Positions 7,785 to 31,127 are shown, counted from the first letter of the stretch. The stretch is DNA of 64,000 bases from Candidatus Moraniibacteriota bacterium (GCA_052034935.1 JBPOIB010000003.1:34407-98406); one strand, 5' to 3'. Notes: a model not told the origin generated them from the sequence alone. Program-made: numbers and translations.

Positions 7785-7870
7785 GCTGTGGTGGTGGAAC
7801 GGTAGACACGCTAGCCTTAGGAGCTAGTGCTCGTAAGAGCATGAGAGTTCGATTCTCTCCCACAGCACCA
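7785..7870 (+). tRNA. tRNA-Leu(UAG)
   Basis: Acceptor GCTGTGG/CCACAGC; anticodon arm CTAGC-CTTAGGA-GCTAG; long variable arm; T-arm GAGAG-TTCGATT-CTCTC; encoded CCA. Confidence 0.85.
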
Positions 7871-7903
7871 AAAAAATCTTCCTATATAGGAAGATTTTTA
7901 TGT

Positions 7904-10762
7904 TTATCTTCGCCGTGCCGATTGAGGAACGTTTGGAATCAGAGCAAAGACAACTCCCGAAGAGAAGAGGATGAGGAAGACTGAGAAGAGGACCTTGAGC
8001 GAAAAGAGGACCGATGCGGGGAGGTAGCTCGCAAGCAAGGCGTAATATTTCTTGGCGCCAGACTGGGTGATATTTGATGTCTCTGGCTGTTCTATTTGGA
8101 TATTTGAATTAAAGTATACCTCCGTCGTATCGAGAGAGGATATCCCCCAGATATCGGTCATTGCCTGACGAATATCCGTACTGGGCCGATAGACCGCCGA
8201 TAATGAGACATTATACACCCCCTGGCCAGGCTTGCTGGCAGCGAAAGAGATCGTATTTGATGATTCATCTCCGACGTTAGAGCGTTCGACTGTCCAAGCT
8301 CGTGCCACTTTTGGCGGAGCCTCGTTCGAGAGAAAGTCTGGTGTGAACAAAACACGCAGCTGCACTGAATTCCCCTCATAGGTTTCAAGCGTGCTCTTGC
8401 TGAATTCAGTGTATGCAACACCTTTTGTATCAATGTATTGTCCAAGGACTTTCGGCCAGACATTGTTCTGGTCATTCGAAATGATTGTCACCGCAGGATC
8501 AACAATTTTGAATGATCGGGTTATGGTAACTGATTTTTCTGTTGAAACAACGTTGTCGAGCTTATTGGCCGTTACAGAGATTGTGAATACATCACCGACG
8601 CTTCCGACGATAGGGAAGAAGTTTATACTACTCTGTTTGTCGTCACTGCAGTTAAGAACTGATACCTTCGTATTACAGATGAGCGGCTGGCCGTTGATTG
8701 ACCAGCTGAAATTAGTAAGATCGTTGCCGGGCACTTGAAGGGCGATAATTTCATTCTTTACCACCCGACAAAGCTTCGCATCAAGGCGCTGAATCACCTG
8801 ATACTCCGGCGGATCAGCCGGATTCACAATCCCTGTGCAGATTTCATTCCCGGCGTTGATCGAGAGCTTGGCGGGACTACCAGCGACATTGACCGTATGC
8901 GCCAAAATCTTATCCTGGCTCGCATTGAACTTGACGATCGTATTGCTCCGGCCGCGCCGACTTGCTCCGGCCGCGCCGAAGTTTTCAACCGTATCGACAC
9001 GGAACCGAAGATAGCCAATATTATTCAGGAGGTAATTCGGGAAAGGAGTACCGCCGAACGTATCGGTACTCCGCATATTCATATTCATCGTCACTTTTGC
9101 GACACCATTCCCCTTGACCGGCGAGAGAAGTTTCCGATTATCCGGCAGGCTATTTACCGCGCTTGTGATATTTTCCCAACTCGGAGGGTTGGACGTACCG
9201 TCTGAGGAAAGCTCCACTCGCCACTCATAAAAGATCCCCTGCGTTCCCTGCGCGCCATTATTCACCGTTGCCGTTACCTCAAGGAGATCGCCATCCCCTC
9301 GGGTTGTGACATCATTGATGACATCTTCGGGCGAAGAAGATACCGTCAGTTCAAGATTGGTCGCCTGACCACCCTCGGTCGGATCGACAAGGTTCTTCTC
9401 CAGGCAATCATTCAAGTCCATCGAAATAGTTGGAAAGCTGATCTGATAGCCCTCAATCTGTTTGATATAGGTCCCCGTGCCACCTGCCTTCTCGCAAGTA
9501 TTCTTCGAAAAAGCCCACATGATCATGTTTGAAGAATCCTTGTGCTTCGTCGGAATCATCGAAGTTCCTTCGACCACGACACCAACCTTGTCTCCTGGGA
9601 TGTAGTTCCACTCGAAAGAATCCCTTCCGAGGCCGGCGACATTGGCTTCATCCTTTGCGCCATTATCCGCCGTCGACGGATCGGACGGATCAGTCTGCCA
9701 GAACTTCTCCTCATCCGCGCCATAGGTCCCGTCACCGACGGTAAAACCCGGAGCCTTGGGGAACAAGTGTTCACAGACCGGATTGGAGTCTCTGGCGCTG
9801 GAATAATCGCAGGTGAGCAACTCAACATCACAACTCCTCGCGGTTGCTGGATTCGCAACGCAACACGGGGTACCTGTCGCACATGCAGCAACCGGCGAAG
9901 GAAGCGAGGGGTCAGAGTTATCACAGTACGGCAGACCCGAGACATAGTCATCGCCCGGCGTCCACTCGAACGTGCTTCCGCTCACCCCGACTGAACCGCC
10001 ACCGACGTCTCCGCTTGCGACGCTACCGCCATCGGCACTGCCCGTAATAGTTCCAGCATCGATATTCGTGCTTGATTCCATGCAGACGGCATACGGAGTC
10101 GTGCCACCACATTCGTTCCAAGCGGTATTATTGATATTATTCACCAGTTCGTAATTTTCCCCATCCTCATTGTCATGATAGTAACAATGGTTCGGAACAT
10201 TGACCCGGTTATCACCACCGAAGCGAGCCTGATACCCGTCATTATCCGTATCCGCAGCATAACTCGCCACTGCGAAATCGAACCCCTTGCTCGCGAGCTC
10301 ACGATGGGCCGCAATCTTCCAGTCGTTCTCTCCGATAAGTCCATTACCATCCAAATCGCAGGACGGAATCGGGGGATTCCCCTTTTTGCACTCAGGATGC
10401 TGTAGATACCAGGTGAAGTAGAGTTTACCCACATCGCTTGAAAAGTACGTAGCGAAAGCTCGGGCCGTAATCCGTTCACCCTCTTTCGGGTCCGAGGGTG
10501 AAAAAAAGAGGGAAACTTCCGGAGTAACCTTTTTCGTATTGGCGACATTCATGTTTTCACCCTGATCCTGAACAGCTCCTGTATCGATATGGTAGCGTTG
10601 TTCAAGCTCCGAAGCCGACTGAGACGGAGTGGGGACGCTTGGAACTTTCGGAGCACTGAAAAGGCCGGCATTCGCCGGCATAACTGAAGTGAAGAGCAAC
10701 TGAAGACTCAGTATGATACGGCCGAAACGAAAAGCCTTTTTGTATTTTGGGGAGCTCGACAT
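7904..10762 (-). CDS. Large (952 aa) Cys-rich secreted surface protein with a C-terminal membrane anchor; last gene of the T4SS-like operon
   Basis: Signal peptide (RIILSLQLLFTSVMPANA), many Cys, and a C-terminal hydrophobic segment with a basic tail (LILFSSGVVFALIPNVPQSARRR). Confidence 0.6.
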   Translation of the reverse strand: MSSSPKYKKAFRFGRIILSLQLLFTSVMPANAGLFSAPKVPSVPTPSQSASELEQRYHIDTGAVQDQGENMNVANTKKVTPEVSLFFSPSDPKEGERITARAFATYFSSDVGKLYFTWYLQHPECKKGNPPIPSCDLDGNGLIGENDWKIAAHRELASKGFDFAVASYAADTDNDGYQARFGGDNRVNVPNHCYYHDNEDGENYELVNNINNTAWNECGGTTPYAVCMESSTNIDAGTITGSADGGSVASGDVGGGSVGVSGSTFEWTPGDDYVSGLPYCDNSDPSLPSPVAACATGTPCCVANPATARSCDVELLTCDYSSARDSNPVCEHLFPKAPGFTVGDGTYGADEEKFWQTDPSDPSTADNGAKDEANVAGLGRDSFEWNYIPGDKVGVVVEGTSMIPTKHKDSSNMIMWAFSKNTCEKAGGTGTYIKQIEGYQISFPTISMDLNDCLEKNLVDPTEGGQATNLELTVSSSPEDVINDVTTRGDGDLLEVTATVNNGAQGTQGIFYEWRVELSSDGTSNPPSWENITSAVNSLPDNRKLLSPVKGNGVAKVTMNMNMRSTDTFGGTPFPNYLLNNIGYLRFRVDTVENFGAAGASRRGRSNTIVKFNASQDKILAHTVNVAGSPAKLSINAGNEICTGIVNPADPPEYQVIQRLDAKLCRVVKNEIIALQVPGNDLTNFSWSINGQPLICNTKVSVLNCSDDKQSSINFFPIVGSVGDVFTISVTANKLDNVVSTEKSVTITRSFKIVDPAVTIISNDQNNVWPKVLGQYIDTKGVAYTEFSKSTLETYEGNSVQLRVLFTPDFLSNEAPPKVARAWTVERSNVGDESSNTISFAASKPGQGVYNVSLSAVYRPSTDIRQAMTDIWGISSLDTTEVYFNSNIQIEQPETSNITQSGAKKYYALLASYLPASVLFSLKVLFSVFLILFSSGVVFALIPNVPQSARRR
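8943..8979. repeat. 18-bp perfect direct repeat, two copies with a 19-bp period, inside the 952-aa CDS
   Basis: ttgctccggccgcgccga at 8943-8960 and again at 8962-8979. Confidence 0.8.
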
Positions 10763-10764
10763 AG

Positions 10765-11427
10765 TTATCGAAAAATCAACACGACGGCATCAGTAAGAAA
10801 ATAGAAGAACCACGAAGCCCCATAACTGAAGAGGATCGAACGGGACTGATAGGCGATAAGTCCAGCAAAGGGAGCGAAGAGCATCGCTGGTATCGTCTCG
10901 GCAGACACGCCATCACCCAGGTAGACAAGGAGGAAGAACAGGCCCGTCTGGAAAAGCACCGACCACACCCCCCAGCTCCGGAGCCAGAGGAGCATGATAA
11001 AACCCCGGAAAAAGACCTCATACAATAGTGTGATGAACCCATTGACGAGAATCTGGTAGAGGACAAAGAAAAGAAATTTTTCTTCAACAGCCCTGGGAAG
11101 CTGATAGTCCTTGAGCAGCGGGGTAAAGTTCCAAAGAACGAGGAGCGCTGCCAGGGCAACGATAAGAGCGAGAACACTCCCACCAATACCGGCCCAAATA
11201 TTTCCCTTGTGGAAACCGATAGCCGACAAGGGTCGACCTAGCATTATTTTACAATAGAGGAGAGGAATAACCAAGAATACCCCACTGTACGTAATGAAGC
11301 TCCGGACAAGCGGGTCGACATCACCGTAGTCACCGAGATAGAGAAGGAGAATCAAAGAGCTCAGGACGACAGTTGTTGTCCCGATGAACTCTTTGTAGTG
11401 AGCGAGGAAAACGAGTAATTTATTCAT
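10765..11427 (-). CDS. CPBP-family (CAAX protease-like) intramembrane metalloprotease
   Basis: Polytopic membrane protein with the EVFFRG motif (E-E-x-x-x-R-like). Confidence 0.5.
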   Translation of the reverse strand: MNKLLVFLAHYKEFIGTTTVVLSSLILLLYLGDYGDVDPLVRSFITYSGVFLVIPLLYCKIMLGRPLSAIGFHKGNIWAGIGGSVLALIVALAALLVLWNFTPLLKDYQLPRAVEEKFLFFVLYQILVNGFITLLYEVFFRGFIMLLWLRSWGVWSVLFQTGLFFLLVYLGDGVSAETIPAMLFAPFAGLIAYQSRSILFSYGASWFFYFLTDAVVLIFR

Positions 11428-11534
11428 GGAGTTCTGCCTTCATATCCGAGCATTCGTTCATTTCTCGGAGTCTATTGCACTTAAGAACACGAGCAAGGAC
11501 TACTTCTATTCTATCCTATTTTACTCTTTCCGGA

Positions 11535-12050
11535 CTACGCCTGGGCTACCCCCTGGTTTACACTGACTGAACCAGGCCCAAGAGCCCGACCAATTCGCCT
11601 CCGGACAGCCTGCTGCCCCTTTTGAGCCATTTCAAGAGACATGGCTGACTCGTTTGCATCTTTCTTCGCCAGATAGTATGCAAAGAGGACACTTATTGTA
11701 TTAAATGGAGCCAGCCCAATATAGGGAATGAGGTCTAGGAGGGTAATAAAAAAGAAGGCTATCCGGAGCCAGATACGTCCCCGTCCCCACATGAAGATAA
11801 AAAGGTAGGTCGCTATGAAGGAGCTGAAAAACATCCCGAAAACCCAGCCAACTATCGGAAAAGCGGCAAGAATATCAATCATAAAATCATCAGCCAGGGC
11901 CAGGGTCAAAGGAAACAAGAAAACAGAAAAATCTCCGTCTTTTATCCTCTTTCTGTGCTCGATGGCTGTGCGGACAGCGCTTCGGACGGCTGCCCCCCGA
12001 TTGTTCATTACCCCCGTCCGAGCTGCTGTGGCAAGGTCTGAAAAGGCCAT
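11535..12050 (-). CDS. Hypothetical small polytopic membrane protein
   Basis: Three or four predicted TM helices; no recognisable domain. Confidence 0.4.
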   Translation of the reverse strand: MAFSDLATAARTGVMNNRGAAVRSAVRTAIEHRKRIKDGDFSVFLFPLTLALADDFMIDILAAFPIVGWVFGMFFSSFIATYLFIFMWGRGRIWLRIAFFFITLLDLIPYIGLAPFNTISVLFAYYLAKKDANESAMSLEMAQKGQQAVRRRIGRALGPGSVSVNQGVAQA

Positions 12051-12059
12051 ACAGTACGA

Positions 12060-14435
12060 TTATGGGTTCTGGGCATCGAATTCGCGCTTCGCCTCCTCGA
12101 TCTCGAGGAGTTGGCGCGGATCCGACGTGATGATCTGGTCTTCGCTATACGAAGCGATTACCTTGATAGCGGCATGTTTGGTTCCAGCGAAGAATATCCC
12201 CTCACCAACATTCGATTCGAGAAGCAAGAACTTCTCATGGTCAGTCAGATAGAAGGTCTCCGTGATGTAGTCGATTGAAGCGGGTGATTGACGGAGGAGG
12301 AGCTGCATCGATGAGTTCGTGATAATCGGCTTACCGTAGCGCGACGACATGAAGTCACTGATGTCCTGCGTGATAGTTGTCAGGCCCGTATAGTATTTGC
12401 GACAGCGCTTCGCGATACCGAACAGGAAAGAGGCGGCGTCCTCGTTCTGCATCATGATCCATGCCTCATCAACAACGATAATCCGCTGCCGCAGCTTAGA
12501 TCGGATATCGTTCCAGATATACTGCAGGATGATATACATCGCCACCGGGCGAAGTTCTTCTTCCAAATCCCGGATATTGAAGACGACGAGCTGATTTTCC
12601 GTATCGATATTCGTCTGTTGATTGAGGAATCCCGAGAAAATACCTTCCGTGTATCGCTGGAGTCTGGCGGCGATGGAATCCGCCCCTTCCATGTTCTGAA
12701 GCACTGCATAGAGGTCAGACATGGTCGGAAATGAGTTGGCTGTGAGCGTGCTAAAGCGCGAGTCTTCATGAATATCGCGGATAGCGTACGCCTCCCGGAT
12801 CGCCTGATCAAGAATCGAATCTTCCTCAGGAGACAACGTGCCGAGCATGAGATGGAGCAAACCGATCAGGTTGGCGATCGTATTCCGATACACGCCATTG
12901 CTCTCATCATCCGTGGTCACCTTCGGCATATCGAACGGATTGAGGTGCACATCGGAATTCAGCGACACCTTCAGGAACGCCCCGCCGACCGTCTCACACA
13001 GATGTTTGTATTCGTTCTCGGGATCAATAATGATGACGTTCGATTCGAACATAAGGGCACGCAGCACTTCCAGCTTGACCGTATAGCTCTTACCAGCACC
13101 CGACTTCGCGAAGACGACCATGTTCGCATTCTCCATCTTGAAACGGTCAAAGAGAATGAGCGAGTTATTATGCCGGTTGATCCCATAGAGGATGCCTTCA
13201 TTCGAAGACAGGTCGGAAGAGACGAACGGAAATGTCGTCGAAAGCGGCTCGGTATTCAGGTTATTTGCAACATCCAGCGCATCGTTCGCCAAAGGGCGGG
13301 TCGAAGCAAAACCAGCATCCATTCGGAGCACCGCCGGCTTCGTATACACCAACTGTGCCTCGAGTATTGCTTCAATCGACTGGACTTTTTGAGCCAGGTC
13401 TTTTTCATCTGATCCGTACAGCATCATATAGAGACCAAAGCGGAAAAACTTTTCGGTCCCCTGCTGGAGCCGGTCCCGCAGTTCCTCGATATTTTGGAGA
13501 GCCGCCTCAAGCATAGGATCGCGGATCTTTCCCTCTTCAATCTCGATATTCATCTGCGACTGGACCTGAGTCGCCGACTTCCGGAGCTGCTTCAATATCT
13601 CGGCGGTTTCAATCGGGTGAATGAAGAGCGCCGTGTCCATCGGAAAATCAAGGTTGATGATTGGAGAAAACCAGTTCGTCGAAAGAAATCGCGGATAGGC
13701 GACAACAAACAGCGTCCGTGCGACGACATCGCCGATTTGCATCGTCGCTGGCGTGACTCGGATTGCGGGCGGAGCGATCAAATCCTTGATTGTCGCCAGC
13801 CCTCTCTGGTAGAGCACCTCCGTATCAACGCTCTCATCAGTAACTGCCGTTTTTTTCTTCCCGAACAGTCCAGAAAAAAAACTTTTCTTCGGCTTCGGAG
13901 CAGGTTCGACCGGCGCAGGGACGGGGGTGGGAGCGAGCTTCTTCTCGGCACGTTCTTCTTTCGTCGGCATGGCGAGAGGCAAACCGAATGGCTTTTTCAC
14001 CGGCGCTTCAGCGGCTGATTTTTCTGATGTTTCCGCAACTGCCTCCTTCTCCGGATTATTCTTGGCATCAGCCGGTTTACTTTTTCCAGAGCCTTTGGCT
14101 TTCCCGGTTATTTTCTGCAGCCAGCCCTTCTTCTCCTCAACTGCTGAAACCTCCAGTATTTTCCCCGTTTTAGGCGGGCGGGCGTCGCCCCGGAGGGTCT
14201 GATTCAGAAGCTCGGAAGCTCGGCCGACTGGAGCAATCCAGTCGCTTTCCTCGTCCGGATCAGCCAGCACCCGCTTCTTTGCTGCGCCCGCTGGCCGAGA
14301 AGCCGGCTCAGGACTGCCTGTCTGATCTCCGTCCGAAACGGACATTTTTGCGAGGCTGGAGGCGTCGAGAAGCGAAGGGTCTACCACAGAAACCTTTTTA
14401 GCTGGCCGATCAAAAATAACGCGATTGGTTCCCAT
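12060..14435 (-). CDS. VirB4/TrbE-family T4SS ATPase, C-terminal segment with a disordered K/P/A/E-rich N-terminal linker
   Basis: Walker A VVFAKSGAGKSYTVK; Walker B IIVVDEAW; Gram-positive VirB4 middle-region motifs. The first 200 aa or so are low complexity. The ATG lies one codon after the in-frame TGA that ends the upstream ORF. Confidence 0.85.
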   Translation of the reverse strand: MGTNRVIFDRPAKKVSVVDPSLLDASSLAKMSVSDGDQTGSPEPASRPAGAAKKRVLADPDEESDWIAPVGRASELLNQTLRGDARPPKTGKILEVSAVEEKKGWLQKITGKAKGSGKSKPADAKNNPEKEAVAETSEKSAAEAPVKKPFGLPLAMPTKEERAEKKLAPTPVPAPVEPAPKPKKSFFSGLFGKKKTAVTDESVDTEVLYQRGLATIKDLIAPPAIRVTPATMQIGDVVARTLFVVAYPRFLSTNWFSPIINLDFPMDTALFIHPIETAEILKQLRKSATQVQSQMNIEIEEGKIRDPMLEAALQNIEELRDRLQQGTEKFFRFGLYMMLYGSDEKDLAQKVQSIEAILEAQLVYTKPAVLRMDAGFASTRPLANDALDVANNLNTEPLSTTFPFVSSDLSSNEGILYGINRHNNSLILFDRFKMENANMVVFAKSGAGKSYTVKLEVLRALMFESNVIIIDPENEYKHLCETVGGAFLKVSLNSDVHLNPFDMPKVTTDDESNGVYRNTIANLIGLLHLMLGTLSPEEDSILDQAIREAYAIRDIHEDSRFSTLTANSFPTMSDLYAVLQNMEGADSIAARLQRYTEGIFSGFLNQQTNIDTENQLVVFNIRDLEEELRPVAMYIILQYIWNDIRSKLRQRIIVVDEAWIMMQNEDAASFLFGIAKRCRKYYTGLTTITQDISDFMSSRYGKPIITNSSMQLLLRQSPASIDYITETFYLTDHEKFLLLESNVGEGIFFAGTKHAAIKVIASYSEDQIITSDPRQLLEIEEAKREFDAQNP

Positions 14436-14438
14436 ATA

Positions 14439-15116
14439 TCAGGATTGGAGTTCAATGCCTTCGATATTCCGGACGACACTCGCTGCGAACATCGACGGAT
14501 TATAGCTATTATAAAGCAGTTCGATCAGCTCTTCGGTTCCGAGCGTGGTAGCCCGGATACCCATTGGAGAAAGGCCGGCCGTCACGTGCTCCACCCGCTG
14601 CATGAGCTGCGTCCGATAGGTATCGAAAAGATCCTCTTTGAGACCGACCGTTTTCTTCGGATGGAAGATATCGCCGATTTTTCCAAAAAACCCACCCTTG
14701 GTATTCTCAACTGGGGAAAATGGGATGACCACGTAGAAAAACTTCGACATGATATTCGATATCTCAGTCAGGTTCTTGATGAAACCCTGGTATTCTTTCA
14801 TTTGAAAACGGAGTAGCTCATTTGGTTGCTGCACCTCTTTTTCTCGCAGAAGCTCAATATACGGGTCGATATTGAAACGTCGCGACTGAATCACTACTTG
14901 GACCGGGAAGTCGAGCGAGTTGAGAAAGTTCTGGTACTGACTAATGATTGAATCCTGTTCTTCACTCGACTTAAGGTCGAAATTGATAGAGGAGACCAAA
15001 AGCACCGCCCGGAGCGCCCCGTTCTTGAGGACCAATGCACCGTCACGAATCTCTTCCACATTGACGTAACGCTGGGTGCTTGATCCGCTCGATTGTTTCT
15101 TGGAGAGGAGTTCCAT
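14439..15116 (-). CDS. VirB4 N-terminal domain-like protein, in frame with the downstream VirB4 segment and separated from it by one TGA
   Basis: Motifs resembling VirB4 N-termini of Gram-positive T4SSs: LLVSSINFDLKSSEEQDSIISQYQNFLNSLDFPVQVVIQSRRFNIDPY. Confidence 0.5.
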   Translation of the reverse strand: MELLSKKQSSGSSTQRYVNVEEIRDGALVLKNGALRAVLLVSSINFDLKSSEEQDSIISQYQNFLNSLDFPVQVVIQSRRFNIDPYIELLREKEVQQPNELLRFQMKEYQGFIKNLTEISNIMSKFFYVVIPFSPVENTKGGFFGKIGDIFHPKKTVGLKEDLFDTYRTQLMQRVEHVTAGLSPMGIRATTLGTEELIELLYNSYNPSMFAASVVRNIEGIELQS

Positions 15117-15124
15117 AGGAGCGT

Positions 15125-15517
15125 TTACTTACTATCAAGAATACGAGCGAGACGCGAAAGCTCCTCAGGGCTGATCCGCTTTTCTGCCTTTGCTGGTTTT
15201 GGCGGCTCAACGGGGACCGCTATTTTTTTCGGCCGAGCGACCGGCCGTTCCCAGACAGCCACCTTTGGTCGGAAAAAATAGACGATGCCATGGAAAAAGA
15301 ACGAGACCAGTGGCTGACCTTGCGGCCGATAGAATGCGAGAGCGGAAAAGAGAAGTACAATCGGCACGCCAGTCACAAAAAAGCCGATCAGGCCAATCGT
15401 GTTATAGATGATGAGCAGCGTCACGCCCATCCCCATCATCCAGAGGAGTTGGCGCCACGTCAGGGGACCGGCGATTTTGTCTTCGACATCGATAAATTGC
15501 GGGACACTGAACATCAT
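15125..15517 (-). CDS. PrgI/VirB3-like small membrane protein
   Basis: VPQFIDVEDKIAGPLTWRQLL, then two TM helices; about 130 aa; directly upstream of VirB4. Confidence 0.55.
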   Translation of the reverse strand: MMFSVPQFIDVEDKIAGPLTWRQLLWMMGMGVTLLIIYNTIGLIGFFVTGVPIVLLFSALAFYRPQGQPLVSFFFHGIVYFFRPKVAVWERPVARPKKIAVPVEPPKPAKAEKRISPEELSRLARILDSK

Positions 15518-15610
15518 ACGGCGATTTTGTTTCGGGGCGTAGAAAAATTTCTCGCCCGGACCTTTTTACAACAAAAAAGAGGCTTCTTCGTCAGTATACC
15601 ACGCACCCTT

Positions 15611-16828
15611 TTATGCCGATGGCCGATCATCGTTCCTGAGACGAAGCGGCCGAATCGTGTACGGACTCTTCGGAAGGCTCGCACCCGGTTCACGTTTGAT
15701 GCCCTGAGACGGATGCTGCACCGACTGATTCACGGGAGCCGGTGGCGCCATCGGCGCAACTGGTGGAACGGTCTTTTCCGAAGCTTTCTCAGCGGGAAGC
15801 ACATGTCCGGTTGAAAAATGGAGTGTTTCACCAGAAATATTCTTTTCCGGCGGAGTTGTTTTTGAGAAAAGCGGCTTGAGATTGGCGAGTACCGGTGTTG
15901 CTGGTGTTGGCTTCGGCGGCATCACACCAGACGGCCGAATCGCCGGAGCTGGAGCCATCCCTGGAGCGAATGCTGCTGGACGGACAGTACCGACCGGCAT
16001 CGCGCGCGGCTGAATGAAACGATTCGCCACCGGGCGAGCATTCGTATTCACCTGGGTCAATTCCATCGAAGCATCGCTCCCGGCCGGAAAAATGATTGCT
16101 TCACGCTTCGGATCGATATCGAGCGGGAATCCCTCTTCGATCGACTTCAGGATAAGGTTCAGCTTGGCTCGGTCGTCGTTGGTCAACTTCTTCCCATTCT
16201 GGGACTGAAAGAGGAACCCACCGCGCTTTACCGGTTCATGGAAACCGATACCGAGTTCTTCCCGGTAGGAGCGAATCCAATTCGAGAGCGTCGGCCGGAC
16301 CAATTCCGTCGAATTTCGAAGCTTGATCTTCTCGCTCGTGATCAGCTGATCCGTCACATGTTTGTAGTCACTCATCGCCTTCAAAAGGGGCAGTTTGACA
16401 GTTGCAGGTCTTTCCTCTCGTGGAATATATATTTCCTCTTCAATCACAGGTTCCGGCGCGGGAACAATCGTCATGATTTCTTTCTGAATTGCTTCAACAA
16501 TTGCCTTCGCCTGATCTGGACTCCCACCCTCACTAGACTTCAATGCCGAAGCAATTTTCGTTTCTGCTTCGTCGAAATTTAGGTCACCAAAAAATATTTT
16601 TCGTACAGCGAGACTCACTATCGCTACTCCAACTTCTTGAAGCTGAAAGCGCTTTTCGAAGTCCTGCATCTTCTCAACGACTTCACTTGAGACAAGAATG
16701 TCTTTCTTTTTGGTATCAAGAGTCCGAAACTTCACCCACATCTGAAATTCTTCCTCTACAGAATCGGCATCTGTAAAAACAAGCATTGGATAGTAAGCGT
16801 CACTCAGTTTTACTGCGCTGGTTGACAT
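15611..16828 (-). CDS. Hypothetical T4SS-associated protein, 405 aa, soluble, with a Pro-rich C-terminus
   Basis: No TM; the C-terminal third is Pro/Ala-rich; lies between VirB6-like and VirB3-like genes. Confidence 0.4.
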   Translation of the reverse strand: MSTSAVKLSDAYYPMLVFTDADSVEEEFQMWVKFRTLDTKKKDILVSSEVVEKMQDFEKRFQLQEVGVAIVSLAVRKIFFGDLNFDEAETKIASALKSSEGGSPDQAKAIVEAIQKEIMTIVPAPEPVIEEEIYIPREERPATVKLPLLKAMSDYKHVTDQLITSEKIKLRNSTELVRPTLSNWIRSYREELGIGFHEPVKRGGFLFQSQNGKKLTNDDRAKLNLILKSIEEGFPLDIDPKREAIIFPAGSDASMELTQVNTNARPVANRFIQPRAMPVGTVRPAAFAPGMAPAPAIRPSGVMPPKPTPATPVLANLKPLFSKTTPPEKNISGETLHFSTGHVLPAEKASEKTVPPVAPMAPPAPVNQSVQHPSQGIKREPGASLPKSPYTIRPLRLRNDDRPSA

Positions 16829-16846
16829 ATCTCTTTTCTGACTACC

Positions 16847-19150
16847 CTATGGATTTTGCTGGCCGGTCCCGTTTTGTCCGGCATTACTTGACGGCTGATT
16901 GAAGGCGGCTTGCGCATTTTGCCAAGCCTGTGACCGCTGAGCAGTTTGCTGGGTCTGTGTTCCAACAGAATCTTTAATCTCAAGCAACACTTTCATATCT
17001 TCGGGCTTTAGCTCATCTGACCTGAGCACTTTATCAAATGCATCCTTCTGGTTCTTCGCCATCTCTTCAAAATAAGCGCGCGCCTCTGGATCCGTACCAT
17101 TCGCCTGGGCACTTTGAATGAGCCCACTCTGTTTCGATAGATCCTTACTGCCCATTTTTAGAACATCCTTATAGACCTGCGCTACCGGGATTGGTCCGGT
17201 TCCTGAAGTCATTCTCCGAGCAATTTCTGCTTGAATTCTATACTCGGCCTTATTCTCCTTCTTGAGCGCTCCACTGTAAGCCTGCTGTAAATCAGTTTGG
17301 CGAGAACCATAAACCGATACATCCTTTCCGTCCTTATCTTTCTTAGTCTCGCCCAACATGCCAATGATCTTAGCATTAGTCGTACTATCCATCGATCCGA
17401 CCGCCGACGGTTTTGCCTTATCAAGAACCTGGTTAAATTCATCAGCATTCCCCTTCACTGCATCAAGTGAATCTGCCAACTGATTGGCCGTTCGAATTTC
17501 TCCCATCTGAGCCAAAGAAAGAGCAGCTACTCGCTTATCAAAATCGGATGACTTACCATCTTTTAGAGTTTCAAAGTGTTTCGTTGCTGTCACACCCTTA
17601 TCGATATTCTCCTTTACTGCCTTACGGGCACGATCGGTCTCGAGACTTCTGAGTTCCGCATCCGCACCTTCCTTCGCTGTAGACCATCCGCCTTCCCTCT
17701 GGACTCGGCCTTTACCGGCCGCAAACCTATCTTCAATCGCTTCCTTTCGGCCTTTGGCCGTCATAAACTTCGGAATATTTTTCCCAAATACTTTTCCACC
17801 GTCCGTAAACGATTCTTTCACGCCAGCCAATTCACCCCTCAATCGGTCATATGGCAACACCATGCGAGCCGTGCCGCCAGCAACGCTCTTCGCCGTGTTT
17901 CCGGCGAATTTGGCGGTATTGACGACTTTTGTCTTGGTATAATTTCCGATCGCCCGCGGCAAAGCATAACCGAGGCCGACGACGACCGAGGCGCCAACCA
18001 AACTCGATCTGCTTGCCATGCCGATGGTGAACCAGATCATGATGATCGGGATACAGAAGAAAACCACCTGAGCGAGAAAAGTTGCAGAAGCCGCATCCGG
18101 CGACTGGCCGCTCGAGTAGTCTCCGAGGCTCTTCCAAATGCCGCTCCCGGCAACGCCAGCCATGAATTTGATGCTGATCATCAGCATCAGTGCCGCCGAA
18201 GGTCCGAAAAGCGCGTATTTCCAAAAATACTCCCACCATTCGCGTCCGAATTTATCGAGACCCGGGAGGAGCGAGGCAGCAAAACCGATCGGGGAAAAGA
18301 TGAGCAGCATCGTGAGCGCGATCAGCCGGATGATCATCATGAGCGCGAGGACGAACAATGAGATGCTGAAGAGAAAAACGAAGATGATGCCCATGATGAG
18401 CGGTGCCATATCCCCTTCCTGAACATTGGTAAAGGCGGTCGCTCCGGTTCCCGAATAAGCGAACATCGACTGCATAGCGATCATCCCACCGGAACTTTTT
18501 CCGTCCCCGAGCACATCATTGATGAAGTAATACATCGGCACATTGGCGGCATCAATGAGGAAACGCGTGATTGGAAAGCTGAAATTGATGAAAAGCGCCA
18601 CGAGGAGAATATTCTTGAAGATATTCCGGATATTGAAACTGTCGACTTGGAAAATAGTAGCGAACGCGGAAAAAAGAAGGATAAGGATGAAGAAAAGATT
18701 GAAAAAATCCCGGATGAACTGCCAGAGGTTATAGACGGCGGGAAGATTCAATGTTCCACTAGTACCCGTCATCGTTGCCGGGTCGACCGTCCAAGCAAAA
18801 CCGGTCGCCGCTGGTATCATGACGAAGCGGAACAGGAAACTGAGAAACATCCCCAAAAGCTCGATGATGAGGTTTTTCAGGTGACAGCCAAATTCAAAAG
18901 TATCACAGGTACCTGGGGTAACAACCGGCGGAGCCGCCGGCGTTTGGCTCGTAGCACTGGCATCTTTTTTCCCGAGATCTTTGGTTTGTTCGTAAGGTCC
19001 AACACCTGCTGCATATGCTCCTTCAGGCGCCATTCCAGGATTATCTGCATGGACGTCAGCTACAAGGAAAAACCCACCCTGAACAAACAGTATCGCGAGA
19101 AGAATAAAACTGAGTCTCTTTTGTATTTTCTTTTTTTGCAACCACCCCAT
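16847..19150 (-). CDS. VirB6/TrbL-like polytopic T4SS membrane protein with a roughly 400-aa hydrophilic C-terminal extension
   Basis: Signal peptide, at least six TM helices, long charged C-terminal tail. The ORF track starts at GTG 19171; ATG 19150 gives a better signal peptide. Confidence 0.55.
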   Translation of the reverse strand: MGWLQKKKIQKRLSFILLAILFVQGGFFLVADVHADNPGMAPEGAYAAGVGPYEQTKDLGKKDASATSQTPAAPPVVTPGTCDTFEFGCHLKNLIIELLGMFLSFLFRFVMIPAATGFAWTVDPATMTGTSGTLNLPAVYNLWQFIRDFFNLFFILILLFSAFATIFQVDSFNIRNIFKNILLVALFINFSFPITRFLIDAANVPMYYFINDVLGDGKSSGGMIAMQSMFAYSGTGATAFTNVQEGDMAPLIMGIIFVFLFSISLFVLALMMIIRLIALTMLLIFSPIGFAASLLPGLDKFGREWWEYFWKYALFGPSAALMLMISIKFMAGVAGSGIWKSLGDYSSGQSPDAASATFLAQVVFFCIPIIMIWFTIGMASRSSLVGASVVVGLGYALPRAIGNYTKTKVVNTAKFAGNTAKSVAGGTARMVLPYDRLRGELAGVKESFTDGGKVFGKNIPKFMTAKGRKEAIEDRFAAGKGRVQREGGWSTAKEGADAELRSLETDRARKAVKENIDKGVTATKHFETLKDGKSSDFDKRVAALSLAQMGEIRTANQLADSLDAVKGNADEFNQVLDKAKPSAVGSMDSTTNAKIIGMLGETKKDKDGKDVSVYGSRQTDLQQAYSGALKKENKAEYRIQAEIARRMTSGTGPIPVAQVYKDVLKMGSKDLSKQSGLIQSAQANGTDPEARAYFEEMAKNQKDAFDKVLRSDELKPEDMKVLLEIKDSVGTQTQQTAQRSQAWQNAQAAFNQPSSNAGQNGTGQQNP

Positions 19151-19302
19151 AAAAAGCAAGATATAGCGCACTCAGTCAATATGAGAAATTATATCACAAG
19201 AAACATCATTTTCCGTAAAGAAAAACCTCCTTTATCTGAAAGAGGTTTCTTATTAGCTGCACTTGCTTCCGTAGCTGTTCAGACCCAATTGTCTTCGCGA
19301 GT

Positions 19303-20709
19303 CTAATACACGTACCCTTTGATGACGCGGCTGTTTCGCGACAACTGGCGAACACTCTTTTTCGCCCAACCGGTATAGTTCATCTCAGAAACCGTAATCG
19401 TATCCTTCGTTACCTTTTCGACATAGGCGACATGGCCATAATAGCGATCTTCAGTCGTGACAACGATTGATCCGACCGTCGGAGTCTTACCGGTCTTATA
19501 GCCGTAGGCACGGGCATTGTAGAGCCAGGTTCCCGCATTGCCACCCCAGGGAACATAGCGTTTCTGAGCCACGAACCAGGTACAGTAGCCGTAGGGGAAG
19601 CGATGGCCTTGGCTGATTTTCCCCTCCTTTGGTCGCGAGAAGCTCGGCGTGATGTCGGTGGCCGCTCCGCCGCTGGTCTGAGATGCATACTCGCGCCGCG
19701 CGAGCCCGGTCGAGTCTTGGCTCTGCGGGGGGAGCTCCTTCACTCCGCCCGGGATAACAATCTCCTCGCCGTCCGTCAGCTTCCCGTTCGCCGGCAATCC
19801 GTTGAAAGAAATAATCTGGCTTCGATCAGCCTTATACTTGGTGGCAATTGCATCGAGCGTATCCCCCGCCTGGACCTTATAGTTGAATCCACTCACCGGA
19901 GGGACGAAGATCTGGTCCCCCGGCTTGATGGAGTCGACATTATCAAGGACATTCGCCCAAAGAATCGTATTGACGGTCACACCGTTGGCGGCAGCGATGC
20001 CGGAAACCGTATCACCCAGCTGGACCGTGTAGAGCTTCACACCCCCGTCTTCTTCGGGCTCGCGAGCCCGCTGTGCGCTCATGGCACTAGTCAGGAACAT
20101 CTGATTTTCAGGCGACAGATACGCCTCTTCAAGCACGTCCGTGTCTGTTTTTGCCGAAAGATCGGCCGGTGTCGGGGCAGTGGCAAGAGAAACGAGCGAG
20201 AGGTTATGCCGCTTGGACTCCTGCGCGGCTCGGCGAGGCACGATTCGTCGCTCGGAAGACGAATCTATACCGAAGAAGCTGAGCAAGCGCTCTCGGCCGC
20301 CGGTCTCTTGAGCGTAATTAGTGATGGAAACAAGCGCCGCCGCTGAAATGACCAAGGAAAAAGCGGCATATTTTCGAAAAAGAATCACCGGGACATACCC
20401 CGAACGCTCTTTAAACCAGATAAGGAATTTGGTCTGCCACTGATGAAACGTGGTATTCCATTGCGTAAAATCAACCAGCTTTCTGGTTTTAGACCACCAT
20501 TTCTTCCCGCCTGATGAAAAGTTCAAAGAGATACCTGCACCCTTTCTTTTGGGAATATCGCTAGTTTCCGCCGTGGCAAGCCAGGACCAAAACATCGCTG
20601 AATTCCCCCAAGAGTTACAGAAGGCAGCATAACCAAAAAGCCCGCTTTGGTCAATCTGATTTTCGCTCTTTTTCTTGGATTTTCCCTTATTTGAGCTAAA
20701 AAGTTCCAA
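19303..20709 (-). CDS. Peptidoglycan hydrolase: N-terminal membrane anchor, two LysM domains, C-terminal CHAP domain (VirB1/PrgK analogue)
   Basis: LysM: YTVQLGDTVSGIAAANGVTVNTILWAN and YKVQAGDTLDAIATKY. CHAP: Cys and His in GYCTWFV...YGHVAYVE. Confidence 0.8.
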   Translation of the reverse strand: MELFSSNKGKSKKKSENQIDQSGLFGYAAFCNSWGNSAMFWSWLATAETSDIPKRKGAGISLNFSSGGKKWWSKTRKLVDFTQWNTTFHQWQTKFLIWFKERSGYVPVILFRKYAAFSLVISAAALVSITNYAQETGGRERLLSFFGIDSSSERRIVPRRAAQESKRHNLSLVSLATAPTPADLSAKTDTDVLEEAYLSPENQMFLTSAMSAQRAREPEEDGGVKLYTVQLGDTVSGIAAANGVTVNTILWANVLDNVDSIKPGDQIFVPPVSGFNYKVQAGDTLDAIATKYKADRSQIISFNGLPANGKLTDGEEIVIPGGVKELPPQSQDSTGLARREYASQTSGGAATDITPSFSRPKEGKISQGHRFPYGYCTWFVAQKRYVPWGGNAGTWLYNARAYGYKTGKTPTVGSIVVTTEDRYYGHVAYVEKVTKDTITVSEMNYTGWAKKSVRQLSRNSRVIKGYVY

Positions 20710-20770: not shown

Positions 20771-21781
20771 ATGGAAATCATTGCTACAATTCACTTATGT
20801 CGCATAATGTTTATGATTTTCTTTGACCCGCCGAAAAATGAAATTGAACGTCTCGCGAAAGAGTTCTCTGAGCACCTCGAGATTGAAATGAGCCGATCGC
20901 CCCGGACGCTTTCAAGCTATTCCCAGGCCTTGGCGGCTTTTTTCACTTGGGGGGAAATCGAGAGGCCGACTGATATGACGAGCGAGAAAATTCGGCAATA
21001 CCGTCTTTTCCTCAATCGTAAAGTCACTCGCCAGAATACAACCCTGAAACGCAGCACCCAGGCCTATCACGCGATTGTGCTCCGGACCTTCCTCAAATAC
21101 CTCTCCAAGCATGATGTCGTTGCCCTCGCCCCGGAAAAAATCGAGATCGGTCGCGTCCCGGAACGCCAGGTCGATTTTCTGGAATATGATGAGGTGGAAC
21201 GGCTGCTCGCTGGACCAATGGGCGATACGGTACGTGCTAAACGCGACCGCGCCATCCTCGAACTCCTCTTTTCCGCCGGACTCCGCGTTTCCGAGCTAAC
21301 CGGTCTCGATCGCGACCAGGTCAATCTCGGCAAAGACGAATTCAGCGTCCGTGGAAAGGGGTCAAAACTCCGCATTGTTTTCCTCTCCCCCTCCGCCAAA
21401 GAGGCGATTGAGGACTATCTCAAATATCGTACTGATATCGACCCTGCTCTTTTCGTTTCGCATCCGAAAAAAGGCCTGGTGAATAAGAAAAATGCCGGGC
21501 GCGATACGCTTCGCCTTACGCCCCGGACCGTCGAACGCCTCGTGAAACACTACGCGAAGAAGGCCGGCATCCTGAAAGATGTGCATCCGCACACGCTTCG
21601 ACACAGTTTTGCCACCGATCTGCTCCAAAACGGTGCCGACATCCGCTCCGTTCAAGCGATGCTCGGGCACGCCTCAATCACGACGACCCAGATCTATACG
21701 CACGTCACGAACGAACGGCTGAAAGAAATCCATCAGACTTTTCATGCGAAGCAGTCACGGAAAAAGAAAAACGACAACTAG
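20771..21781 (+). CDS. Tyrosine site-specific recombinase (XerC/XerD-like integrase)
   Basis: C-terminal HTLRHSFATDLLQNGADIRSVQAMLGHASITTTQIYTHV; the catalytic R..H..R..Y pattern is consistent. Confidence 0.85.
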   Translation: MEIIATIHLCRIMFMIFFDPPKNEIERLAKEFSEHLEIEMSRSPRTLSSYSQALAAFFTWGEIERPTDMTSEKIRQYRLFLNRKVTRQNTTLKRSTQAYHAIVLRTFLKYLSKHDVVALAPEKIEIGRVPERQVDFLEYDEVERLLAGPMGDTVRAKRDRAILELLFSAGLRVSELTGLDRDQVNLGKDEFSVRGKGSKLRIVFLSPSAKEAIEDYLKYRTDIDPALFVSHPKKGLVNKKNAGRDTLRLTPRTVERLVKHYAKKAGILKDVHPHTLRHSFATDLLQNGADIRSVQAMLGHASITTTQIYTHVTNERLKEIHQTFHAKQSRKKKNDN

Positions 21782-30725: not shown

Positions 30726-30727
30726 TT

Positions 30728-31087: not shown

Positions 31088-31127
31088 ATTAAGATAGTCC
31101 TAGTATATCGAATCTGGCACCCCCTGT

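What the first reader, a model, noticed from the sequence alone, without database searches (positions are those of the whole stretch)
7904..20709. Minimal Gram-positive-type T4SS-like operon with no coupling protein or relaxase
Eight co-directional genes on the minus strand encode a LysM+CHAP cell-wall hydrolase (VirB1/PrgK analogue), a VirB6/TrbL polytopic protein with a roughly 400-aa tail, a 405-aa Pro-rich soluble protein, PrgI/VirB3, a split VirB4 ATPase, a small membrane protein, a CPBP protease and a 952-aa Cys-rich surface protein. No VirD4, relaxase, VirB8 or pilin is recognisable in the window. This gene set resembles T4SS-like host-interaction or DNA-uptake machines in reduced-genome (CPR-type) bacteria more than a conjugative plasmid module. 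The operon composition (CPBP protease plus giant Cys-rich cargo/adhesin) is not a described canonical architecture.
Basis: partly seen in the sequence, partly recalled or inferred. Interest (0 to 1): 0.8.

Follow-up and report, generated by a model that had tools for sequence, protein, structure and literature searches.

The report
Chromosomal type IV secretion locus, Moranbacteria
This is the chromosomal type IV secretion gene cluster that ultra-small CPR/Patescibacteria carry instead of a conjugation module; the system was described in 2023-2025, so the find is real but mostly ordinary, apart from an undescribed two-gene surface-protein cassette attached to it.

Summary
Nine co-directional minus-strand ORFs (7904-20709) encode a LysM+CHAP hydrolase, an extended VirB6/TrbL-like protein, a 405-aa cytoplasmic protein, PrgI/VirB3, a TrsD-like VirB4 N-terminal piece, the VirB4 ATPase body, a small 3-TM protein, a CPBP-fold membrane protein and a 952-aa exported protein. 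No VirD4 or relaxase lies in the 64 kb.

The host is a Candidatus Moranbacteria (Paceibacteria, CPR). The whole row, with its housekeeping flanks (PcrA, Xer, CCA enzyme), is syntenic in about 50 species-level genomes. It is therefore a vertically inherited chromosomal locus, not a mobile element.

This is the Patescibacteria-clade T4SS described by Wang 2023 and Quinonero-Coronel 2025: relaxase-less, with TrsD+VirB4+PrgI+VirB6, and essential for epibiotic growth in Saccharibacteria.

- The "CPBP protease" lacks the first catalytic Glu and has no conserved His in 52 orthologs, so it is probably not a protease.
- This protein and the 952-aa protein form an obligate pair. The pair also occurs far from any T4SS gene.
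- The 952-aa protein is a disulfide-rich array of Ig-like beta-sandwich domains with a C-terminal anchor. That looks like an adhesin or stalk, with no evidence that it is cargo.

Verdict: new member of a known kind, moderate interest.

The parts
19303..20709 (-). Membrane-anchored cell-wall hydrolase with two LysM domains and a CHAP domain. It is a functional analogue of VirB1/PrgK/TraG. The probable true start is the ATG at 20595.
   Evidence: Pfam LysM 7.7e-21 and CHAP 1.5e-18. NCBIfam PcsB-type CHAP 7e-23. One hydrophobic segment at residues 108-126. Orthologs lack the first ~55 residues, and a GGGGG RBS precedes the ATG at 20595. It sits next to the VirB6-like gene in both Moranbacteria subclades.
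16847..19171 (-). Extended VirB6/TrbL-like polytopic membrane protein. Residues ~95-420 form the TM domain. A ~350-400 aa K/E/A/Q-rich hydrophilic tail follows.
   Evidence: No direct Pfam hit. Weak NCBIfam CD3337/EF1877 mobilome membrane protein match, 1.6e-4. Profile A3 hits P0174 at E 5e-55, and P0174 is Pfam TrbL 8.6e-9 (35.9 bits vs cutoff 25.9). P0147 matches TrbL_4 at 1.2e-5. Many hits carry precomputed PF19590, which names TrbL_3. About 8 hydrophobic segments.
15611..16828 (-). Conserved cytoplasmic protein of unknown fold. It has a helical domain (~10-125), an alpha/beta domain (~140-250) and a disordered Pro-rich tail. The tail carries two conserved short motifs, HFSTGHVLPAEK and PY(T/S)IRPLR.
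15125..15517 (-). PrgI/VirB3-like small membrane protein.
   Evidence: Pfam PrgI 1.8e-9, 38.4 bits vs cutoff 27; TcpE 6.4e-5. Present in 75 of 80 related loci.
14439..15116 (-). TrsD/TraC-like protein, the detached N-terminal segment of VirB4.
   Evidence: NCBIfam VirB4_plasma 6.8e-11 (profile 96-233), TrsD 4.5e-7, CD1110 6.7e-6 (profile 2-111), TIGR00929 (5-123). The ortholog in L085 carries precomputed PF26593 TraC-like. 74% mean column identity across 47 orthologs. The gap to virB4 is 3 bp.
12060..14435 (-). VirB4 ATPase body. Residues ~1-200 are a low-complexity extension. Residues 203-753 are the VirB4 middle and P-loop domains, with Walker A AKSGAGKS and Walker B IIVVDEAW.
   Evidence: Pfam P-loop_TraG 4.6e-30 and AAA_10 9.7e-13. 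NCBIfam conju_CD1110 2.8e-107, above cutoff. More than 8000 homologs, with 69-95% identity across Moranbacteria. The motifs are visible.
11535..12050 (-). Small polytopic (~3 TM) membrane protein of an unnamed family. It lies directly downstream of virB4.
   Evidence: An HMM built from positional orthologs finds it directly after VirB4 in 75 of 80 loci, including the subclade that lacks the two downstream genes. Conserved core ...ALLKDLLD...PGIGT...LNFLP.ET.... No credible Pfam or PDB sequence match.
10765..11427 (-). CPBP/Rce1-fold membrane protein with degenerate catalytic motifs. It is the obligate upstream partner of the 952-aa gene.
   Evidence: Pfam Rce1-like 7.4e-4, below cutoff. 26 of 46 orthologs match, best 2.8e-7. 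Motif 1 reads (Y/F)E-V-F-F-R-G. Q160 and D213 are conserved. There is no conserved His in 52 sequences. It is adjacent to the 952-aa homolog (median gap 11 bp) in all 47 loci where both genes are complete, and in L082-84, L085/86, L087 and L088.
7904..10762 (-). Exported, C-terminally anchored, disulfide-rich surface protein. It is built from tandem Ig/FN3/MG-like beta-sandwich domains.
7872..7899 (.). 12-bp-stem palindrome just past the stop of the 952-aa gene and after the convergent tRNA-Leu. It is the likely bidirectional terminator marking the 3' end of the gene row.
   Evidence: Terminator-like site. tRNA-Leu at 7785-7870 (+). The overall scan counts were not above chance, so this is positional inference only.

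Best explanation
The region is the chromosomal, vertically inherited type IV secretion locus of a Candidatus Moranbacteria (class Paceibacteria, CPR/Patescibacteria). It belongs to the Patescibacteria VirB4 clade that derives from Gram-positive (MPF_FATA) conjugation machinery.

Shown here:
- The locus encodes a cytoplasmic-membrane translocon. Its parts are a VirB4 ATPase split into a TrsD-like N-terminal protein and the ATPase body, a PrgI/VirB3 protein, an extended VirB6/TrbL-like channel protein and a LysM-CHAP wall hydrolase.
- Two lineage-conserved partners of unknown fold accompany it: a 405-aa cytoplasmic protein between VirB6 and PrgI, and a ~3-TM protein directly after VirB4.
- Directly downstream lies a separable two-gene cassette. 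It consists of a catalytically degenerate CPBP-fold membrane protein and a 952-aa disulfide-rich protein made of Ig-like domains, anchored by a conserved C-terminal helix pair.

Inferred:
- The hydrolase opens the wall.
- VirB4/TrsD, docked on PrgI and VirB6, powers assembly and translocation of a non-conjugative substrate (protein or another macromolecule) at the contact with a host cell. This follows the Saccharibacteria system, where the T4SS is essential for epibiotic growth.
- The 952-aa protein most likely acts as a surface adhesin or stalk. The CPBP-like protein is most likely its membrane partner, acting as scaffold or chaperone for the anchor rather than as a protease.
- Whether the cassette is a working part of the T4SS or only a neighbour is unresolved.
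For: - Domain assignments.
- Taxon: the closest VirB4 homologs and 80 GTDB species loci are Moranbacteria/Moraniibacteriota.
- Chromosomal and vertical inheritance. The flanks are the CCA-adding enzyme, tRNAs, Xer recombinase, PcrA and KsgA. The order PcrA/Xer/LysM-CHAP/VirB6/405/PrgI/TrsD/VirB4/3TM/CPBP-like/952/CCA recurs in about 50 species-level genomes. GC content does not differ from the flanks.
- No T4CP or relaxase domain in any ORF of 150 aa or more in the window.
- VirB4 is 69-84% identical across the order, against 33-45% for the envelope proteins. This fits strong purifying selection.
- Literature: the T4SS genes SEML1_0006-0019 are essential in S. epibionticum, with no recognisable coupling protein or relaxase in that cluster (PMC10633639). 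A phylum-wide survey reports TrsD, PrgI and VirB6 near virB4, relaxases rare, and ksgA nearby (PMC12102498).
- Cassette: strict adjacency, degenerate motifs and Ig-like arrays.
Against: - No experiment or expression data exist for this lineage. The substrate and the direction of transport are unknown.
- The VirB6 assignment is transitive, not direct.
- No VirB8-like protein and no VirB2-like pilin were found. The characterised Saccharibacteria system has an NTF2-like protein and an essential pilin array, so the Moranbacteria machine may work differently.
- A T4CP may exist elsewhere in the genome; only 64 kb were seen.
- The CPBP-like/952 cassette is detached from T4SS genes in L082-84 and L088.
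Confidence: 0.8

Rival explanations
1. The CPBP-like gene and the 952-aa gene are an autonomous surface-protein module (an adhesin or S-layer-like protein plus its membrane partner). It happens to lie downstream of virB4 in this lineage and is not a T4SS component.
For: - The pair occurs without any T4SS gene within 10 kb in L082-84 (after UPF0102-DksA-LspA) and in L088 (between ValRS and DprA).
- A second Moranbacteria subclade keeps PrgI-TrsD-VirB4-3TM but has no cassette within 10 kb of virB4.
- The about 50 syntenic genomes are one clade. Their linkage may therefore reflect a single ancestral rearrangement.
- Structure searches gave no match to any T4SS part.
Against: - Linkage directly after virB4 recurs in the more distant L085/86 lineage, in a different arrangement with no 3-TM gene between.
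- The gap to the upstream operon genes is small (107 bp) and the strand is the same.
- In S. epibionticum, large exported proteins with Ig-like domains downstream of virB4 are essential.
Confidence: 0.4
2. The CPBP-like protein is an active, non-canonical intramembrane protease. It would process the conserved C-terminal anchor of the 952-aa protein, as a dedicated sorting system analogous to CPBP-type MrtS/Synerg-CTERM or myxosortase systems, releasing or re-attaching the surface protein.
For: - Strict gene pairing in every context examined.
- A weak NCBIfam match to the MrtS sorting protease, 4.5e-3.
- The 952-aa C-terminus has the tripartite look of a sorting signal: a conserved motif (K-K-Y/F-x-A-x-L-x-S-Y-x-P), hydrophobic helices and a short polar or charged tail.
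- E137, R141, Q160, S197, S201 and D213 are conserved.
Against: - The first Glu of EExxxR is Y/F/L, and no His is conserved anywhere in 52 orthologs. From general knowledge of Rce1/CPBP enzymes, one Glu and two His are required for catalysis.
- The MrtS match is far below its cutoff (17 vs 130 bits).
- The C-terminal basic cluster is not conserved.
Confidence: 0.12
3. The machine is a DNA (or RNA) import device, comparable to the Helicobacter ComB or archaeal Ced systems, rather than an exporter.
For: - There is no relaxase or T4CP in the window, as in uptake systems.
- Weak VirB4-family matches to CedB, 5.6e-13.
- ComM (28784-30304) and PcrA lie nearby.
- A 2026 preprint reports host-RNA uptake by a cultivated Patescibacterium with tubular structures 'that may be T4SS pili', and treats VirB4 as presumably associated with macromolecule transfer.
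Against: - The CedB match is generic to the VirB4 ATPase fold and far below its cutoff.
- In S. epibionticum, a review (PMC12857230) summarising Wang 2023 states that competence abolished by a comEC deletion did not affect viability, whereas the T4SS is essential. T4SS essentiality is therefore not explained by ComEC-dependent DNA uptake.
- The preprint states that the uptake mechanism is unresolved.
Confidence: 0.12
4. It is a decayed or integrated conjugative element (ICE/plasmid remnant) that has lost its relaxase and coupling protein. The adjacent tyrosine recombinase would be its integrase.
For: A Phage_integrase-family gene (20771-21781) is adjacent and divergent. The VirB4 best model is a conjugative-element family, CD1110. 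tRNA genes lie at the other end.
Against: - The recombinase is conserved at the same position, at 56-81% identity, in 43 related genomes, including the subclade with a different T4SS arrangement. It behaves as a chromosomal Xer-type gene.
- The whole locus and its housekeeping flanks are syntenic across about 50 species.
- There is no GC anomaly and there are no relaxase or T4CP domains.
- All nine ORFs are intact and under conservation.
Confidence: 0.03

Closest known systems
Patescibacteria-clade T4SS (Southlakia epibionticum SEML1_0006-0019, Wang et al. 2023, PMC10633639; phylum survey by Quinonero-Coronel et al. 2025, PMC12102498)
   Same: - Chromosomal and monoderm-type.
- Core order VirB6-like ... 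PrgI - TrsD-like - VirB4, followed by large exported or envelope proteins.
- An extended VirB6.
- Peptidoglycan hydrolase(s) in the cluster.
- No relaxase or coupling protein in the cluster.
- ksgA in the neighbourhood.
- VirB4 belongs to the same highly conserved clade.
   Different: - No VirB2-like pilin array and no NTF2-like (VirB8-like) protein here.
- The hydrolase is LysM+CHAP only, rather than lysozyme-like x2 + cysteine proteinase plus a DD-peptidase protein.
- There are extra conserved proteins of unknown fold (405-aa cytoplasmic, ~3-TM).
- The degenerate-CPBP + 952-aa cassette is not in the Se cluster. The Se CPBP, SEML1_0208, is canonical and lies elsewhere.
MPF_FATA conjugative T4SS of Firmicutes (pGO1/pSK41 Trs with TrsD+TrsE; pCF10 PrgH-I-J-K; CD1110-family ICE ATPases)
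   Same: - VirB4 matches conju_CD1110 above its cutoff.
- PrgI family protein.
- TrsD-like separate N-terminal VirB4 piece.
- TrbL/VirB6-like polytopic protein.
- CHAP-domain wall hydrolase.
- No outer-membrane core components.
   Different: - No relaxase, T4CP, oriT-associated genes or PrgB-type adhesin.
- Not on a mobile element.
- Vertically inherited with housekeeping flanks.
T4CP-less, non-conjugative T4SSs (Bordetella Ptl, Brucella VirB)
   Same: They function (or are predicted to function) without a VirD4-type coupling protein encoded in the locus. They are dedicated to host interaction rather than DNA transfer (cited in PMC12102498 and PMC12857230).
   Different: Those are diderm MPF_T systems with VirB7/9/10 core complexes and pili. 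There is no sequence relationship beyond VirB4/VirB3/VirB6. Absence of a T4CP from this genome is not established.
CPBP/Rce1 superfamily, including catalytically dead members such as APH-1 and CPBP-type C-terminal sorting proteases (MrtS). This comparison rests on general knowledge and was not tested here.
   Same: Multi-pass membrane protein with the (E)ExxFRG helix. 26 of 46 orthologs match Pfam Rce1-like. It is genetically paired with a protein that has a conserved C-terminal anchor.
   Different: The first Glu and both motif His residues are missing in all 52 orthologs. The scores are below the curated cutoffs for this protein.

Membership tests
Type IV secretion system (VirB4-based), Patescibacteria / MPF_FATA type | VirB4-family ATPase with intact Walker A and B motifs | tested here: met
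   NCBIfam conju_CD1110 359.8 bits vs cutoff 325. Pfam P-loop_TraG 4.6e-30. AKSGAGKS and IIVVDEAW are visible.
Type IV secretion system (VirB4-based), Patescibacteria / MPF_FATA type | VirB3/PrgI small membrane protein next to virB4 | tested here: met
   Pfam PrgI 38.4 bits vs cutoff 27. It lies two genes upstream of virB4.
Type IV secretion system (VirB4-based), Patescibacteria / MPF_FATA type | VirB6/TrbL polytopic channel protein | tested here: inconclusive
   No direct Pfam hit for this protein or for 40 of 41 orthologs. Transitive support: profile A3 hits P0174 (5e-55), and P0174 is TrbL above the gathering score; there are also TrbL_3 and TrbL_4 annotations on homologs. The structure was not predicted.
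Type IV secretion system (VirB4-based), Patescibacteria / MPF_FATA type | TrsD-like protein (VirB4 N-terminal homologue) adjacent to virB4, the most frequent accessory in the Patescibacteria clade | tested here: met
   Complementary matches to three VirB4 models, plus TrsD 4.5e-7 (below that model's cutoff). The ortholog carries PF26593 TraC-like.
Type IV secretion system (VirB4-based), Patescibacteria / MPF_FATA type | Cell-wall hydrolase (VirB1 analogue) in the cluster | tested here: met
   LysM x2 + CHAP. It is conserved next to the VirB6-like gene in both subclades. It is an analogue of SLT-type VirB1, not a homologue.
Type IV secretion system (VirB4-based), Patescibacteria / MPF_FATA type | VirB8-like (NTF2-fold) bitopic protein | tested here: not met
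   No ORF in the row has a VirB8/PrgL hit. The 405-aa model has no NTF2-like match. The survey also finds VirB8 rarely in Patescibacteria.
Type IV secretion system (VirB4-based), Patescibacteria / MPF_FATA type | VirB2-like pilin(s) near virB4 (frequent in Patescibacteria, essential in S. epibionticum) | tested here: not met
   No PF04956 or PF18895 hit. There is no room for extra ORFs in the row, and no pilin-like small ORF lies in the window's gaps. Divergent pilins elsewhere in the genome cannot be excluded.
Conjugative element (plasmid/ICE transfer module) | Relaxase (MOB) and type IV coupling protein (VirD4/TcpA) | tested here: not met
   No such Pfam domain in any ORF of 150 aa or more in the 64 kb. 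The rest of the genome was not available.
Conjugative element (plasmid/ICE transfer module) | Location on a mobile element: patchy distribution, foreign composition, integration boundaries | tested here: not met
   Housekeeping flanks and full synteny in about 50 species-level genomes. GC 0.49-0.53, like the rest of the window.
CPBP (Rce1-like) intramembrane protease | Sequence match to the family model above its curated cutoff | tested here: inconclusive
   The window protein scores 20.2 bits vs cutoff 22.4. 26 of 46 orthologs match at E of 0.1 or better, best 2.8e-7. A profile search of PDB sequences found nothing.
CPBP (Rce1-like) intramembrane protease | Catalytic motifs EExxxR, FxxxH and HxxxN/D (Glu plus two His) | tested here: not met
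   Motif 1 is (Y/F/L)ExxFRG. There is no conserved His in any of 52 orthologs. Q160 and D213 are conserved instead. The exact mapping of motifs 2 and 3 onto the sequence could not be verified residue by residue.

The most novel reading that the evidence does not exclude
In Moranbacteria the pilus-less T4SS is completed on the outside by the degenerate-CPBP/952-aa cassette. The dead CPBP-fold protein would act as a membrane scaffold for the conserved C-terminal helix pair of the disulfide-rich Ig-array protein. That protein would form the host-contact stalk or adhesin of the machine, replacing the VirB2 pilin array and the VirB8 of Saccharibacteria. The always-present 3-TM protein and the 405-aa cytoplasmic protein, whose disordered tail ends in a conserved Arg-containing motif (IRPLR), would be new core subunits or the substrate receptor that stands in for a coupling protein. 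Together these would give a structurally new branch of T4SS used to exchange macromolecules with a host cell.
Probability: 0.15. Interest if true: 0.7.

Novelty: new member of a known kind. Interest (0 to 1): 0.38.

Why it matters
T4SSs of Patescibacteria are currently the best genetic lead into how these ultra-small epibionts exploit host cells, and their substrate is unknown.

This locus shows what the system looks like in Moranbacteria, a lineage for which I found no T4SS paper. Its invariant block is PrgI - TrsD - VirB4 - 3-TM protein. There is no pilin array and no VirB8-like protein. Two proteins conserved across the syntenic loci have no known fold.

The locus also yields a cleanly defined, strictly paired cassette: a pseudo-CPBP plus an Ig-array surface protein, with 423 representative clusters. 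The cassette is often but not always T4SS-linked, and I found no paper that mentions CPBP together with Patescibacteria.

These are concrete targets for AlphaFold-multimer, cryo-ET and metatranscriptomic work. They do not change the current picture of the system.

Tried and rejected
- **Direct Pfam support for VirB6.** None for the window protein, and 1 of 41 orthologs at E 0.032. I replaced this with a transitive profile search.
- **Profile searches of PDB sequences.** Searches for the CPBP-like, VirB6-like, TrsD-like and 3-TM families gave nothing, or only low-complexity noise.
- **Pfam on 45 members of the 3-TM family.** Only scattered weak hits, for example DUF4133 in 2 members at 1.8e-3. 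I rejected these as evidence.
- **Promoter/terminator scan.** Counts were not above the shuffled expectation. I used only two sites, and only as positional hints.
- **Chimeric query.** A query made of 405-aa residues 1-260 plus 952-aa residues 331-450 was meant to recover both families in the last homolog search. It returned the 405-aa family plus a single fragment of the 952-aa family, P0291. The MSA for the 952-aa protein was instead built from the representative search.
- **Residue-level motif mapping.** I looked for canonical CPBP genes in the fetched loci to map the motifs residue by residue and found none.
- **ICE/plasmid reading.** Considered and rejected on synteny, composition and the absence of relaxase and T4CP.
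- **The 405-aa protein as a VirB8 analogue.** Considered and rejected because it has no TM segment and no NTF2 fold.

Full report
**Observation**

ORF listing confirms nine co-directional minus-strand ORFs at exactly the stated limits. They are 19303-20709, 16847-19171, 15611-16828, 15125-15517, 14439-15116, 12060-14435, 11535-12050, 10765-11427 and 7904-10762, separated by 2-131 bp.

Pfam and NCBIfam give clear calls for four of them:
- LysM x2 + CHAP: 7.7e-21 and 1.5e-18.
- PrgI: 38.4 bits against a cutoff of 27.
- VirB4: P-loop_TraG 4.6e-30; conju_CD1110 359.8 bits against a cutoff of 325.
- The 225-aa protein: TrsD 4.5e-7.

The 'split VirB4' reading is correct in a precise sense. The 225-aa protein aligns to the first ~110-135 positions of three independent VirB4 models. 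The 791-aa protein aligns only from positions 175, 292 and 255 onward. Its first ~200 residues are a low-complexity extension that only the closest relatives share. The Walker A (AKSGAGKS) and Walker B (IIVVDEAW) motifs are intact.

**Context and organism**

Every other sizeable ORF of the window is a housekeeping gene. Examples are IF-2, the CCA-adding enzyme, Xer-type recombinase, PcrA, KsgA, PNPase, GyrA, S1, FtsH, TilS and LexA. There are seven tRNAs. No ORF carries a VirD4/T4CP or relaxase domain. GC content is even across the locus.

The VirB4 has more than 8000 homologs. The nearest named ones are Candidatus Moranbacteria/Moraniibacteriota. A scan of one genome per GTDB species returned 80 loci, almost all labelled Moranbacteria.

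tblastn and HMM mapping of all window genes onto these loci show one gene order in about 50 species-level genomes: PcrA / Xer / LysM-CHAP / VirB6-like / 405-aa / PrgI / TrsD-like / VirB4 / small TM protein / CPBP-like / 952-aa / CCA enzyme.

A second subclade keeps PrgI-TrsD-VirB4-small TM protein upstream of KsgA-PcrA-Xer, with LysM-CHAP and the VirB6-like gene downstream. It has no CPBP-like or 952-aa gene within 10 kb.

The locus is therefore chromosomal and vertically inherited, not a mobile module. VirB4 is 69-84% identical across the order, while the envelope proteins are 33-45% identical.

**The uncertain components**

*VirB6.* The 774-aa protein has no direct Pfam hit, and only 1 of 41 orthologs touches TrbL, at E 0.032. 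A profile of its TM domain (A3) retrieves 85 proteins. Of these, P0174 (E 5e-55) is Pfam TrbL above the gathering score, P0147 matches TrbL_4, and many carry PF19590, which names TrbL_3. With its ~350-400-aa hydrophilic tail, the protein fits the 'extended VirB6' class described in PMC12857230.

*Small TM protein.* An HMM built from positional orthologs finds this family immediately after virB4 in 75 of 80 loci. It has no credible Pfam or PDB relative. It is the most faithful unnamed companion of VirB4 in this order.

*CPBP-like protein.*
- The window protein is just below the Pfam cutoff, but 26 of 46 orthologs match Rce1-like, best 2.8e-7. Fold homology is therefore credible.
- The catalytic signature is not there. 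Motif 1 reads (Y/F/L)-E-x-F-F-R-G, and no histidine is conserved anywhere in 52 orthologs.
- The conserved polar residues are instead E137, R141, Q160, S197, S201 and D213.
- From general knowledge of Rce1/CPBP enzymes, one Glu and two His are needed for catalysis. 'Protease' is therefore unlikely, and a scaffold role (as for APH-1) is the simplest reading.

*952-aa protein.*
- It has an N-terminal hydrophobic leader, 18 Cys of which 16 are conserved, and a conserved C-terminal helix pair.
- The AF2 model has mean pLDDT 82 and is a chain of beta-sandwich domains.
- The family has 423 representative clusters among 1.84 billion proteins.
- A VKOR homolog in the window fits extracytoplasmic disulfide formation.

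**The cassette**

The CPBP-like gene sits directly upstream of the 952-aa gene, with a median gap of 11 bp, in all 47 loci where both genes are complete. The same holds in every distant context examined.

Two of those contexts lack any T4SS gene within 10 kb. They are L082-84, after UPF0102-DksA-LspA, and L088, between ValRS and DprA. One context, L085/86, whose VirB4 is 69% identical to the window's, has the pair directly after virB4.

The pair is thus a separable unit whose link to the T4SS recurs but is not obligatory. It is not part of the S. epibionticum T4SS cluster, where the only CPBP is canonical and lies elsewhere.

**Comparison with what is known**

Wang et al. 2023 (PMC10633639) showed that the S. 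epibionticum T4SS cluster is essential for epibiotic growth, resembles Gram-positive conjugative systems, and lacks recognisable coupling and relaxase proteins.

Quinonero-Coronel et al. 2025 (PMC12102498) surveyed 2,474 virB4 genes in Patescibacteria. Their findings:
- A monophyletic clade related to MPF_FATA.
- TrsD as the commonest neighbour, along with PrgI and VirB6.
- LysM-bearing VirB1 analogues.
- Rare relaxases.
- T4CP homologues mostly far from virB4.
- ksgA nearby.

Moranbacteria genomes are in their dataset. The finding is therefore a member of a described system.

The differences from the characterised Saccharibacteria cluster are:
- no pilin array;
- no NTF2-like protein;
- a simpler hydrolase;
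- the three unnamed conserved proteins;
- the cassette.

I found no paper combining CPBP with Patescibacteria, or Moranbacteria with type IV secretion.

**Mechanism**

The gene content, its conservation and the missing conjugation functions in the window are shown.

The rest is inferred. The hydrolase would open the wall. TrsD/VirB4, docked on PrgI and VirB6, would energise assembly and transfer of a non-conjugative substrate at a host contact. The 952-aa protein would be an adhesin or stalk held by its CPBP-fold partner.

The direction of transport and the substrate are unknown. A 2026 preprint suggests host-RNA uptake in the phylum, with possible T4SS pili, but leaves the mechanism open.

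**Verdict**

The claim of novelty is overstated, and the 'CPBP protease plus cargo' reading is not supported. It is a new member of a known kind, with modest added value from the cassette and the unnamed conserved subunits.

Noticed in passing
window 60563-61027 (-): A VKOR (vitamin K epoxide reductase) homolog, Pfam 1.8e-19. It is a likely DsbB substitute for extracytoplasmic disulfide formation. That fits the 16 conserved cysteines of the 952-aa exported protein.
   Followed up: no
window 49110-50420 (-), with tRNA-Ala at 50578-50653: A 436-aa ORF with no Pfam family sits in a sharp low-GC trough (0.31-0.36, against ~0.51 for the window) next to tRNA genes. It may be horizontally acquired.
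   Followed up: partly
window 21778-23100 (-): A 440-aa right-handed beta-helix (NosD/pectate-lyase-like) protein with an N-terminal hydrophobic segment lies between Xer and PcrA. A homolog is present at this position in only 3 of 80 related loci (L008, L011, L012). It is therefore a lineage-specific insertion beside the T4SS locus.
   Followed up: partly
window 13836-14435 (-), VirB4 residues 1-200: A K/A/P/E-rich low-complexity N-terminal extension of VirB4. It is shared only by the ~10 closest relatives. Other Moranbacteria VirB4 proteins are ~620 aa.
   Followed up: partly
window 20595-20709 (-): The LysM-CHAP ORF probably starts at the ATG at 20595, which is preceded by a GGGGG RBS. A promoter-like site lies at 20654-20626. 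Orthologs lack the first ~55 residues of the maximal TTG ORF.
   Followed up: yes
L006:12329-15190, L010:11905-15048, L036:4027-5820: In some relatives the small 3-TM gene after virB4 is expanded to 597-1047 aa with long C-terminal tails. The family therefore carries a highly variable extra domain.
   Followed up: no
L081:3954-5000, L082:13835-14977, L087:3993-4901 (related by sequence); L085:13715-14872, L088:8801-9958 (by position and size only): A ~300-385-aa protein with no confident Pfam family (only a faint Tricorn_2nd hit in L088) follows the 952-aa homolog in several distant lineages. blastp relatedness was shown only among the L081, L082 and L087 copies. The L081, L082 and L087 copies have no homolog in this window; the L085 and L088 copies were not compared. 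It may be a third member of the cassette that this lineage has lost.
   Followed up: partly
window 30294-31607 (-): UPF0102 - DksA-like - LspA-like genes. In L082-84 the CPBP-like/952-aa cassette sits immediately after this same block. In the window the block is followed by ComM instead. This marks the relocation point of the cassette.
   Followed up: partly
L001, L005-L008 and many others (record titles): Many GTDB-representative MAG records that carry this Moranbacteria-type locus are titled 'uncultured Bdellovibrionales bacterium'. This looks like a submission-level mislabel.
   Followed up: no
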